Assembly: GCF_002854065.1 (NCBI RefSeq)
Contig: NZ_CP024147.1
Reading direction: 5' to 3' (one strand)
Length of the DNA: 64,000 nucleotides
Source of the DNA: Escherichia coli
GTDB lineage: Bacteria > Pseudomonadota > Gammaproteobacteria > Enterobacterales > Enterobacteriaceae
A program made the position numbers. Each line of letters starts with the position of its first letter. Within the stretch, counting starts at the first letter, position 1. Of the stretch, positions 26,101 to 29,100 are shown piece by piece.

Positions 26101-29100
26101 AAAAATATGTGGTTAAACCGATCTTCTCCCGTGAAGGCGCAAACGTGTCGATCATTGAGAACGGCAAAACCATTGAAGCAGCGGAAGGTCCGTATGGCGA
26201 AGAAGGGATGATTGTTCAGCAATTCCACCCGTTACCGAAATTCGGCGACAGCTATATGCTGATTGGTAGCTGGCTGGTGAACGATCAACCCGCCGGAATT
26301 GGCATTCGTGAAGACCGTGCATTGATCACCCAGGATATGTCTCGGTTTTATCCACATATTTTTGTTGAGTAATCAATGATGCCGGATGGCATTCGCCATC
26401 CGGTAATTGTTAACCTATCTGCACCGACAGCATACTTAAACTGCCCATTTCTATACCATCGACCGGAATGGTAATTGGCTCCTGCCCATCCCACGCACCT
26501 AACACATACAACAACGGCAGATAGTGCTCTGGCGTTGGGTTCGATAACGCGCCACCTTCATGGTCGAGATAATTCACCAGAGGATGCTGCTCTACCGCCC
26601 CTTGCCACGTGAGATTCGCTTTCACATACTCATTAAACGACATCGCCCACGGATACGGTGAACTATCACCGTGCCACTTCACTGTACGCAGGTTATGCAC
26701 CACGTTGCCACTGGCGACCAACATTACCCCTTCATCACGCAGCGCCGCGAGTTTGCGCCCCATTTCGAAATGCCAGGCGGCAGGTTTGCTACTGTCGATA
26801 CTCAACTGCACCATCGGGATATCCGCGTCAGGATACATCTTAATCAGCACGCCCCAGGAACCGTGGTCAAAGCCCCAGGCTTCTTTATCCAGCGTCACCG
26901 GGATCGGCGCTAACAGCTCAACCAGACGCTGTGCCAGCGCAGGCGAACCCGGAGCAGGATAATGCGTATCGTACAGCGCCTGCGGGAAGCCACCAAAGTC
27001 ATGAATCGTGGGCGGCGTCTCCATCGCGGTCACTCCTGTTCCACGGGTAAACCAGTGAGCCGAAACCACCACAATCGCTTGCGGGCGTGGCAATGTCATC
27101 CCCAACTTCTGCCAGCTGCGGGTATACAAATTATCTTCCAGCACGTTCATCGGACTACCGTGACCTAAAAACAATGCTGGCATACGTGTTGAAGACATGA
27201 TGATATCCTTAACTAAAGGTGTCATTTTGATATCCTCACAATACGCTTGTTCGGCGGAGTAAGAACCCGGATAACAATGATGATGATCATCAGTTATTTT
27301 GACGATCTGCCTGAAGGTGAAGATTTATAAGGAGTTGTCGATGTCAGTACCTCTCATTCTGACCATACTGGCGGGGGCAGCCACGTTTATTGGCGCGTTT
27401 CTCGGCGTTCTCGGGCAAAAACCCTCGAACCGCTTACTGGCGTTTTCGCTAGGATTTGCGGCGGGGATCATGTTGCTCATCTCATTAATGGAAATGCTTC
27501 CTGCCGCACTAGCAGCTGAAGGAATGTCGCCTGTGTTGGGTTATGGAATGTTTATCTTCGGTCTGCTTGGCTATTTTGGCCTGGACCGCATGTTGCCACA
27601 TGCGCATCCGCAGGATTTAATGCAAAAATCGGTGCAGCCGTTGCCAAAATCGATCAAGCGCACAGCCATTCTGCTCACTCTCGGTATCAGTCTGCATAAC
27701 TTCCCGGAAGGGATTGCCACCTTTGTCACGGCGAGCAGCAACCTGGAGCTGGGATTTGGCATCGCTCTGGCCGTAGCGTTGCACAATATTCCTGAAGGTC
27801 TGGCAGTGGCAGGCCCGGTTTACGCAGCAACGGGGTCTAAACGCACGGCGATTCTGTGGGCGGGGATTTCTGGACTAGCAGAAATTCTTGGTGGCGTGCT
27901 GGCGTGGTTAATCCTCGGTAGCATGATTTCCCCGGTGGTCATGGCGGCAATCATGGCGGCGGTTGCAGGAATTATGGTGGCGCTCTCGGTTGATGAATTA
28001 ATGCCGCTCGCCAAAGAGATTGACCCTAATAATAACCCCAGCTATGGCGTACTATGTGGAATGTCAGTGATGGGATTCAGTTTAGTGCTGCTACAAACGG
28101 CGGGAATTGGTTAAAAGCAACATCAGAAGTTGTCCAGCGCAGGGACAACTTCTGCTAGCTTCACTAAAGCCTTATTCTACCTTTTCGGCTGTCTCTTCTC
28201 TCGTACTGTTTAAGTATTTGTTCCGCGCTTCAAGCAGTGCGTCTCTGTCCTGGCGAAACGCCCGACAATAACGTTTCAAATGCAGGAAATAACCCACCAC
28301 AACAAGAGCAATCAATACAATCCAGTACCAGGCGATAAACATCCTTTTACCCTTAATATTTAACAATACTAAACATTTAGCGCATAAATTTCACATATCC
28401 TTTTTCGGATATATTCATATGGTCGCATAATAACGGAACAATTATATGATTTTGATCATAATGAAAAAGAATGCCTGATATTAATGAAATTTTCTCATAG
28501 AAAGAGAAGCGGAATTAACATCTTGCATAGCAGGGAAAAATAAAAACCGAAGCCTGCTACAACTTCGGTTTCTTGATTAAGGCAGTAATTTAAGCAGCGG
28601 TTTTCAGCTGGCTTTACGCTCATGTGCCTGACGGTATGCCACCAGGTCTTCAATAGTCACGAGCGCCATATTGTGTTTATTGGCAAACTCAATACACTCT
28701 GGTGCACGCGCCATCGTGCCATCGTCATTAGTCAGCTCACACAGCACACCAGCCGGTTTAAAGCCTGCCAGCGTCATCAGATCAATAGTCGCTTCAGTAT
28801 GACCGCCACGCGTCAGTACTCCACCTGCCTGCGCGCGAAGTGGGAAAACGTGGCCCGGGCGATTCAGATCAGAAGGTTTTGCGCCATCGGCAATCGCTGC
28901 GCGAACGGTCGTAATACGGTCAGCGGCAGAAACACCGGTAGTCACACCTTCAGCCGCTTCAATGGTCACGGTAAAACCGGTGCCATAGGCGCTGGTGTTA
29001 TTTTCTACCATCATTGGCAGATCGAGTTGTTTACGGCGATCTTCAGTAATGCACAGGCAAACAATACCGCTACCGTGGCGAATGGTCAGCGCCATCTGCT

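What the first reader, a model, noticed from the sequence alone, without database searches (positions are those of the whole stretch)
28172..28366. Unassigned small membrane protein between zupT and ribB
A 64-aa ORF (56 aa from the second Met) has one clear TM helix (FIAWYWIVLIALVVVGYFL) and a charged C-terminal tail. It sits alone in a 490-bp gap. It may be a genuine small protein or a chance ORF in the ribB terminator region.
Basis: seen in the sequence. Interest (0 to 1): 0.3.

Follow-up and report, generated by a model that had tools for sequence, protein, structure and literature searches.

The report
Known small membrane protein gene yqiD
The ORF is real but not new: it is yqiD, a 56-residue E. 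coli membrane protein shown to be made in 2018. The one added lead is that its conserved promoter sits under a published FNR (oxygen-sensor) binding peak that had no assigned target gene.

Summary
The ORF is at the stated coordinates and is a genuine gene, but it is not unassigned. RefSeq annotates window 28172..28342 (-) as yqiD, "protein YqiD" (WP_000469266.1). VanOrsdel et al. 2018 detected the 56-aa product by chromosomal SPA tagging. The true start is the ATG (56 aa), not the TTG (64 aa).

Supporting evidence:
- The frame is open in 34/34 orthologues.
- dN/dS is about 0.03-0.1 for residues 1-42.
- Every one of 5426 complete E. coli genomes carries one of two allele types.

The gene has its own Shine-Dalgarno sequence, promoter region and terminator. 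It lies well downstream of the ribB terminator.

One new lead emerged. A palindrome, ATGATC(A/G)AAATCAT, lies about 110 nt upstream of the ATG and is conserved in 27 of the 33 related loci scored. It is the best FNR-matrix hit in the 64-kb window. It lies under a robust FNR ChIP peak and an anaerobically preferred sigma70 peak that Myers et al. 2013 listed with target "Unknown". yqiD is therefore probably an FNR-stimulated gene.

Biochemical function remains unknown. The most likely role is as an accessory or regulatory subunit of a larger membrane protein.

Verdict: already known, low interest, with a modest regulatory lead.

The parts
28172..28342 (-). yqiD coding sequence: 56 codons plus a TAA stop. 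Residues 2-20 form the TM helix and 21-56 the cytoplasmic charged helix.
   Evidence: Aligns to the RefSeq CDS 'protein YqiD' WP_000469266.1 and matches the sequence in Table 1 of PMC6001520. The frame is open in 34/34 orthologues. dN/dS is 0.03-0.11 for codons 1-42. AF2 models one helix over residues 3-55 at pLDDT 74.
28343..28366 (-). The in-frame TTG extension of the 64-aa ORF. It is 5' UTR, not coding.
   Evidence: The number of open in-frame codons upstream of the ATG varies (1, 3, 6, 11, 13, 16 or 24) because of 1-nt indels (aaaagg versus aaaaagg) in relatives. No Shine-Dalgarno sequence precedes the TTG.
28350..28354 (-). Shine-Dalgarno sequence AAGGG, 7 nt before the ATG.
   Evidence: TAAGGGTAAAAG(G/A)ATG is nearly invariant across Escherichia, Citrobacter, Salmonella and Intestinirhabdus.
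28343..28412 (-). Inferred 5' UTR of about 70 nt. It includes a possible 5'-terminal hairpin, ATATCC-gaaaaa-GGATAT, at 28395..28412.
   Evidence: The stretch from the box to the ATG is 76-81% identical between genera (72% to E. albertii). Third codon positions are only 43-62% identical between genera (83% to E. albertii), and unrelated upstream DNA 57-64%. The hairpin has only modest support: 75% of cells paired, 2 pairs with compensatory changes, and RNAalifold predicts no consensus structure. The transcription start is inferred, not measured.
28419..28427 (-). Candidate extended -10 element TGcGACCAT. An alternative register is CATATG at 28416..28421.
   Evidence: TGC-[CG]A-n-n-AT is conserved at fixed spacing after the palindrome in all box-bearing species (read by eye). 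The sigma70 ChIP peak of Myers 2013 maps to about window 28417.
28446..28459 (.). Conserved palindrome ATGATCAAAATCAT, an FNR-box-like site (TTGAT-N4-ATCAA). Its centre is about 41.5 (+/-2) bp upstream of the inferred start.
   Evidence: It is the best match in the whole 64-kb window (12.4 bits) to a matrix built from 62 ChIP-supported FNR sites. It is conserved as ATGATC(A/G)AAATCAT, 108-111 nt from the ATG, in 27 of the 33 related loci scored, even where ribB is not the upstream neighbour. It lies under the FNR ChIP peak 'end of zupT/ribB'.
28452..28465 (+). The published predicted FNR site TTGATCATAATGAA (Myers 2013, Table S6). It overlaps the palindrome, shifted by 6 bp.
   Evidence: It scores 10.9 bits here. 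This register scores 10.9 bits in only two other related loci (two other Escherichia) and below 5 bits or not at all elsewhere.
28124..28154 (.). Hairpin terminator shared by the convergent genes yqiD and zupT.
   Evidence: A 12-bp stem followed by AUGUUGCUUUU on the - strand. Minimum free energy is -23.2 kcal/mol, z = -3.5 against shuffles. A different but equivalent hairpin follows the B2-type allele.
28542..28573 (-). ribB intrinsic terminator. It separates the ribB and yqiD transcription units.
   Evidence: A 13-bp stem plus a T-run, located 30 nt after the ribB stop codon.

Best explanation
The ORF is yqiD, a real, independently transcribed gene. It encodes a 56-residue bitopic inner-membrane protein. 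The N-terminal helix (residues 2-20) spans the membrane. The Lys/Arg-rich segment that follows keeps the C-terminal helix in the cytoplasm (N-out/C-in; inferred from the positive-inside rule). Transcription starts at its own sigma70 promoter, downstream of the ribB terminator, and ends at a hairpin shared with the convergent zupT. The promoter carries a conserved FNR-type palindrome at about -41.5, a class II activator position. Together with published ChIP data, this makes yqiD most likely an FNR-stimulated gene: expressed aerobically and raised about 2.5-fold without oxygen. The nearly invariant juxtamembrane segment KRYC(R/K)AFRQDRDALLEAR is the functional surface. By analogy with other E. 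coli small membrane proteins, YqiD most probably acts by binding and modulating a larger membrane protein or complex under low oxygen. What is shown: the gene, the protein's synthesis, purifying selection, FNR and sigma70 occupancy at the site, and conservation of the site. What is inferred: the direction and start of the transcript, FNR dependence of yqiD expression, topology, and the partner-binding mode of action.
For: - **Identity and synthesis.** The RefSeq annotation is 'protein YqiD'. PMC6001520 reports SPA-tag detection and a ribosome-profiling hit.
- **Coding selection.**
- **Ubiquity.** 4432 + 995 of 5426 complete E. coli genomes carry one of two alleles. Orthologues occur in Citrobacter, Salmonella, Intestinirhabdus, Enterobacter, Phytobacter and Kosakonia, always tail-to-tail with zupT.
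- **Own transcription unit.** The ribB terminator lies upstream and a hairpin downstream. The promoter and UTR are conserved even where a fimbrial operon or other DNA replaces ribB upstream. A 2025 preprint tested the yqiD upstream non-coding region in a GFP reporter, and a cis variant there changed expression consistently across its three methods.
- **FNR.** The FNR peak at U00096.2 3181647 was found by three ChIP-seq callers and by ChIP-chip, with target 'Unknown'. The sigma70 peak at 3181649 has an aerobic signal of 395 against 1002 anaerobic, adjusted p = 6.7e-83. These map to window positions of about 28415-28417. The palindrome is the top matrix hit in the window and is conserved phylogenetically.
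- **Structure.** AF2 gives a single long helix.
Against: - No measured transcription start was found (searches gave nothing), so the -41.5 geometry and the strand of the sigma70 peak are inferred.
- Both half-sites are ATGAT rather than TTGAT, and the score of 12.4 bits is at the low end of the training sites (11.0-21.0).
- Myers et al. could not test yqiD expression because the gene was not annotated in 2013.
- The protein is readily detected in aerobic LB cultures, so FNR is at most a modulator.
- Distant family members (Phytobacter, Kosakonia, P0113, P0117) lack the box and have a different upstream motif.
- No partner, phenotype or solved structure exists (one search found no PDB relative).
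- The 'binds a larger membrane protein' step is analogy only.
Confidence: 0.6

Rival explanations
1. The ORF is a chance reading frame in non-coding DNA between ribB and zupT.
For: The ORF is short (56-64 codons) and AT-rich, sits in an intergenic gap, and matches no Pfam or NCBIfam model above cutoff.
Against: The protein was detected by chromosomal epitope tagging. The frame is open in 34/34 orthologues while the other frames are closed. dN/dS is far below 1. The Shine-Dalgarno sequence is conserved.
Confidence: 0.02
2. YqiD is a dedicated modulator of its neighbour, the ZIP-family metal importer ZupT. For example, it could adjust Zn/Fe/Co uptake when oxygen is low.
For: yqiD is immediately tail-to-tail with zupT in every one of more than 30 genomes examined, including those where the ribB side is rearranged. 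It is a single-pass small membrane protein, like other known transporter modulators. A possible metal-ligand pair, H21 (Cys in Phytobacter and Kosakonia) and C26, is conserved in the core clade.
Against: Convergent genes are not co-transcribed, and adjacency may simply reflect a lack of rearrangement. C26 and H21 are not conserved in distant family members such as P0114, P0117 and P0120. There is no experimental link.
Confidence: 0.12
3. The conserved palindrome is not a productive FNR activator site. The promoter may be essentially constitutive or controlled by another regulator (another CRP/FNR-family protein, or H-NS-type silencing), with the FNR ChIP signal incidental.
For: Both half-sites deviate from TTGAT, and the sequence also resembles a weak CRP site (TATGA-N6-TCATA, read by eye). 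YqiD is abundant aerobically. Many FNR ChIP peaks in Myers 2013 had no expression consequence (Table S9). A DUF4051 gene of EAEC 042, probably this one, rises in an aar mutant, where Aar acts through H-NS.
Against: The FNR peak is robust in four analyses. Sigma70 occupancy at the same place rises 2.5-fold anaerobically. The palindrome is the top FNR-matrix hit in 64 kb and sits at a class II distance from a conserved extended -10.
Confidence: 0.25
4. YqiD is a type I toxin-like or membrane-depolarising peptide.
For: It is a small hydrophobic single-TM peptide encoded in an intergenic region, and convergent zupT transcription could supply antisense RNA.
Against: The protein accumulates to easily detectable levels in normal growth. 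It is single-copy, core and under strong purifying selection, including a long invariant cytoplasmic segment. No dedicated antisense sRNA or Rfam match was found, and no PADLOC match.
Confidence: 0.04

Closest known systems
YqiD of E. coli K-12 (b4756; WP_000469266.1; labelled DUF4051 in some source records)
   Same: The 56-aa sequence is identical, the position between zupT and ribB is the same, and so are the strand and the start codon.
   Different: Nothing differs; this is the same gene in an O145-like genome. B2-phylogroup strains carry a 69%-identical allele that RefSeq calls 'hypothetical protein'.
Small single-pass membrane proteins of E. coli that act as accessory or regulatory subunits, such as AcrZ, MgtS, CydX and CydH/YnhF (from general knowledge)
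   Same: The size class (under 60 aa), a single TM helix, and absence from classical annotation. ynhF and yncL also lie at FNR ChIP peaks in Myers 2013.
   Different: There is no sequence similarity. YqiD has a much longer, invariant cytoplasmic helix. No partner is known, so the resemblance is architectural only.
Class II FNR-activated promoters (FNR box TTGAT-N4-ATCAA centred near -41.5)
   Same: An inverted repeat with a perfect TGAT-N4-ATCA core, FNR occupancy in vivo, higher anaerobic sigma70 occupancy, and a weak or extended -10 at the right spacing.
   Different: The outer bases of both half-sites are A/T-swapped (ATGAT...ATCAT). The start site and fnr dependence have not been measured, and the promoter is clearly active aerobically as well.

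Membership tests
YqiD / DUF4051 small protein family | Sequence identity to the named E. coli protein | tested here: met
   100% identical over 56 aa to the sequence in Table 1 of PMC6001520. It aligns to the RefSeq yqiD CDS.
YqiD / DUF4051 small protein family | Conserved genomic position (ribB side, then yqiD, then convergent zupT and ygiD) | tested here: met
   zupT is immediately downstream and convergent in all 30 species loci, plus L032, L033 and L035.
YqiD / DUF4051 small protein family | Match to a curated family model (Pfam DUF4051 or NCBIfam) | tested here: not met
   The current Pfam-A and NCBIfam libraries return only sub-threshold hits to other families: DUF2621 at 20 bits against a cutoff of 27.7, and NF038143 at 17.6 against 50. 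The DUF4051 label comes only from source names of homologues. This does not affect the identity to YqiD.
Translated protein-coding gene | Purifying selection on the reading frame | tested here: met
   dN/dS is 0.03-0.11 for codons 1-42. This is the only frame open in all 34 orthologues, and third-position diversity is about 4 times higher.
Translated protein-coding gene | Protein detected | not testable with these tools
   Reported in the literature as an SPA-tag immunoblot and a tetracycline Ribo-seq positive (PMC6001520).
Bitopic inner-membrane protein, N-out/C-in | One hydrophobic helix of about 19 residues with a positive cytoplasmic flank | tested here: met
   The Kyte-Doolittle mean is 2.33 over residues 1-19. 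There are 5 K/R in residues 21-35 and none N-terminal. AF2 models a continuous helix. The actual topology and localisation were not tested.
Class II FNR-dependent promoter | FNR-box-like inverted repeat | tested here: met
   ATGATCAAAATCAT scores 12.4 bits and is the top hit in the 64-kb window. It is conserved in 27 of the 33 related loci scored.
Class II FNR-dependent promoter | FNR bound in vivo | not testable with these tools
   Published ChIP-seq and ChIP-chip peak 'end of zupT/ribB' (Myers 2013, Tables S5 and S9).
Class II FNR-dependent promoter | Box centred near -41.5 relative to a mapped start | tested here: inconclusive
   The spacing to the conserved TGn-GACCAT fits -41.5 +/- 2, but no measured start was found.
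Class II FNR-dependent promoter | Expression depends on fnr and anaerobiosis | not testable with these tools
   The only support is indirect: sigma70 occupancy of 395 aerobic against 1002 anaerobic.
Small-protein regulators of membrane complexes (AcrZ/MgtS/CydX-like) | Physical association with a larger membrane protein | not testable with these tools
   No partner is known and there is no PDB relative.
Type I toxin | Cognate antisense sRNA and toxicity, with tightly repressed translation | tested here: not met
   No sRNA family matched. The protein accumulates in normal growth. Toxicity itself was not tested.

The most novel reading that the evidence does not exclude
The orphan FNR ChIP peak 'end of zupT/ribB' of Myers et al. 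2013 is the promoter of yqiD. That would make YqiD a conserved, FNR-stimulated small membrane protein of the Escherichia/Citrobacter/Salmonella clade. It would act under low oxygen on a membrane partner, possibly its invariable neighbour, the metal importer ZupT. I found no open-access paper that makes this link, but EcoCyc and RegulonDB could not be consulted.
Probability: 0.4. Interest if true: 0.4.

Novelty: already known. Interest (0 to 1): 0.2.

Why it matters
As a gene discovery it does not matter, because yqiD has been named, validated and annotated since 2018. What remains open is its function. The analysis here gives a testable handle on that: a conserved FNR-type site under a published but unassigned FNR/sigma70 ChIP peak. 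This suggests looking for YqiD's role and partner under anaerobic conditions. It also shows that the RefSeq name covers only one of two deeply diverged E. coli alleles.

Tried and rejected
- **Pfam, NCBIfam and PADLOC scans.** Nothing scored above cutoff.
- **PDB profile search.** No relative was found.
- **Rfam over 27900-29700.** It found only the ribB FMN riboswitch and nothing in the yqiD region.
- **Consensus fold of the 5' UTR.** RNAalifold gave no structure. A hand-specified 5' hairpin has only modest support.
- **Metal-site idea (H21/C26).** I weakened this because distant family members lack both residues.
- **Measured transcription start.** I searched the held supplements of two Cappable-seq papers without a hit. 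One dRNA-seq paper was not held.
- **Expression or iModulon data for yqiD.** No supplements were held for the relevant papers.
- **Other 'yqiD' literature hits.** They concern the unrelated B. subtilis yqiD (ispA).
- **Not run.** I did not run a fused ZupT-YqiD or homodimer AF2 prediction, because the tool returns no interface metrics. I did not run a fold search, because a single helix would give meaningless matches.

Full report
**Observation.** The ORF exists as described. The ORF listing gives 28172..28366 (-), 64 aa from a TTG, and Met9 gives a 56-aa form. The neighbours are ygiD (-), zupT (+, ending at 28114), ribB (-, stop at 28604) with its FMN riboswitch, ubiK and glgS. The gap is 489 bp.

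**Identity.** Megablast of 28100-28620 against 5426 complete E. coli genomes finds the region in 4432 of them. The annotation there is "yqiD: protein YqiD". In the 100%-identical O145 genome the CDS is 171 nt (WP_000469266.1), which corresponds to window 28172..28342, that is, the ATG start.

VanOrsdel et al. 2018 (PMC6001520) named yqiD and listed exactly this 56-aa sequence between zupT and ribB. They detected the chromosomally SPA-tagged protein by immunoblot. They also noted it among unidentified positives of a tetracycline ribosome-profiling screen. A 2026 paper gives its locus number as b4756. The finding is therefore already known. "Unassigned" is incorrect.

**Independent test of coding.**
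- A protein search found about 100 relatives in Escherichia, Citrobacter and Salmonella.
- A scan of one genome per species returned 30 loci, adding Intestinirhabdus, an Enterobacter, Phytobacter and Kosakonia.
- In all of them the frame from the ATG is intact. The number of open codons upstream varies because of 1-nt indels, so the TTG extension is not coding.
- Nei-Gojobori dN/dS for codons 1-42 is 0.03-0.11 at saturated dS. The C-terminal 14-16 residues evolve almost freely (0.5-1.1) but stay charged.
- Only this frame is open in 34/34 sequences, and third-position diversity is about 4 times that of positions 1 and 2.

**Distribution.**
- The roughly 1000 E. coli genomes without a megablast hit carry a second allele with 69% amino-acid identity. 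It is present in 995 genomes, including Nissle 1917, LF82 and ATCC 25922. RefSeq calls it "hypothetical protein", and a fimbrial operon lies upstream instead of ribB. Together, 4432 + 995 means essentially every genome has the gene.
- Third-position identity between the two alleles is only 0.50, so this is an old or imported allele.
- A profile search of 1.8 billion representative proteins found only 22 hits, so the family is small.
- Distant members at about 40% identity keep the ubiK-ribB-yqiD-zupT-ygiD order.

**Anatomy of the transcription unit.**
- The ribB terminator hairpin is at 28542..28573.
- An AAGGG Shine-Dalgarno sequence sits 7 nt before the ATG and is conserved.
- A 12-bp hairpin at 28124..28154 follows the stop codon. 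Its free energy is -23.2 kcal/mol (z = -3.5), and it is shared with the convergent zupT.
- yqiD stays next to zupT in all loci, but in many Citrobacter and Salmonella loci, one Escherichia (E. whittamii, L005) and the E. coli B2 allele ribB is not within 2.5 kb upstream.
- Even so, the roughly 117 nt before the ATG are 76-81% identical between genera. Third codon positions are 43-62% identical and unrelated upstream DNA 57-61%. The gene therefore has its own conserved promoter and leader.

**The regulatory lead.**
- The alignment of upstream regions shows a near-invariant palindrome, ATGATC(A/G)AAATCAT (window 28446-28459), 108-111 nt before the ATG in 27 of the 33 related loci scored.
- Its core, TGAT-N4-ATCA, is that of the FNR box.
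- Supplementary tables of Myers et al. 2013 (PMC3688515) list an FNR peak at U00096.2 3181647, "end of zupT/ribB". It was found by three ChIP-seq callers and by ChIP-chip, with target "Unknown".
- The same study lists a sigma70 peak at 3181649 with anaerobic preference (395 against 1002, adjusted p = 6.7e-83) and a predicted site TTGATCATAATGAA at 3181683.
- To convert coordinates I added 1977, the .2-to-.3 offset from my own knowledge, and used the yqiD position. The peaks then fall at about window 28415-28417. The conversion is checked by the predicted site, which really lies at 28452-28465, within 1 nt of the converted coordinate.
- A matrix built from the 62 other ChIP-supported sites scores the palindrome at 12.4 bits. 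That is the best hit in the 64-kb window; training sites range from 11.0 to 21.0.
- The published register scores 10.9 bits and scores well in only two other Escherichia loci.
- Downstream, a conserved TGc-GACCAT (28419-28427) could be an extended -10 element. This places the palindrome centre near -41.5 +/- 2, the class II position. That spacing was read from the alignment, and no measured start was found.
- A 2025 preprint tested the yqiD upstream non-coding region in a GFP reporter and reports that a cis variant there changed expression consistently across its three methods.
- I conclude that the orphan FNR peak is probably the yqiD promoter. FNR would modulate rather than switch it, since the protein is seen in aerobic LB cultures.
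- Phytobacter, Kosakonia and more distant members lack the box and share another motif, CTACTTATAAAGTGGTA.

**Protein.**
- AF2 with a 19-sequence alignment gives one helix over residues 3-55 at mean pLDDT 74.
- Residues 1-19 are strongly hydrophobic, and the flank HLKRYCRAFRQDRDA has 5 K/R, which predicts N-out/C-in.
- Residues 23-36 are nearly invariant in the core clade. R24, A28, R30, D32-A35 and C26 are invariant even when Phytobacter and Kosakonia are included. C26 and H21 are lost in more distant members, so a metal site is unlikely to define the family.
- There is no PDB relative and no curated family above cutoff.
- The most likely mode of action is binding to a larger membrane partner through the invariant juxtamembrane helix. 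This rests on analogy with other E. coli small membrane proteins and is not shown. ZupT is a candidate partner only because of its invariable adjacency.

**Verdict.** The finding is a correct observation of a real gene that is already named, validated and annotated. Interest as a discovery is low. The FNR link is a modest, testable addition.

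Noticed in passing
L035 2250-2740; compare with window 28100-28620: E. coli has two deeply diverged yqiD alleles. 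The K-12/O145 type is in 4432 complete genomes. A B2-type allele (Nissle 1917, LF82, ATCC 25922) is in 995. They share 69% amino-acid identity and only 50% identity at third codon positions in codons 1-42. The B2 type has a fimbrial usher/subunit operon upstream instead of ribB, and RefSeq names it only 'hypothetical protein'.
   Followed up: partly
window 27277-27292 (zupT/ygiD divergent intergenic region): A second TGAT-N4-ATCA-type repeat, ATGATGATGATCATCA, lies about 50-60 nt upstream of the zupT ATG. It is conserved in nearly all related loci and scores 9.9 bits with the FNR matrix. No FNR ChIP peak is listed there in Myers 2013.
   Followed up: no
window 28343-28412 (-): The yqiD leader is more conserved between genera than synonymous sites are. 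It contains two GTTAAAT-like repeats and a possible 5'-terminal hairpin with a few compensatory changes. This hints at post-transcriptional control or mRNA stabilisation. The structural support is weak.
   Followed up: partly
L029-L033, about 60-90 nt upstream of the yqiD ATG: Phytobacter, Kosakonia and two more distant yqiD loci share a different upstream motif, CTACTTATAAAGTGGTA, in place of the FNR-like palindrome. This suggests the promoter was replaced within the family.
   Followed up: no
window 28100-28620 region in strains XJ34 and XJ6-3 (hits H1, H2): In two bovine E. coli genomes an IS200C element (tnpA) is inserted within this intergenic stretch, splitting the match into two pieces.
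   Followed up: no
window about 29248 (ribB 5' end): Myers 2013 also lists a weak FNR peak at ribB, found by one caller only, at U00096.2 3182480. ribB and yqiC (ubiK) are both among the operons that differ between aerobic and anaerobic growth (Table S12 values 0.46 and 0.42).
   Followed up: no
proteins P0103, P0118, P0111 and P0112: Several database 'proteins' are chimeras or frame-shifted read-throughs of YqiD, for example a UbiK N-terminus fused to a YqiD C-terminus, and a ZupT N-terminus fused to YqiD. These are assembly or gene-calling artefacts in metagenome-derived entries.
   Followed up: no
PMC5570504 (EAEC 042 Orf3334, 'DUF4051 family'): A DUF4051 gene of EAEC 042, probably yqiD, was one of only 3 of 23 tested genes that rose in an aar mutant. 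Aar acts through H-NS. I did not verify that this gene is yqiD.
   Followed up: no
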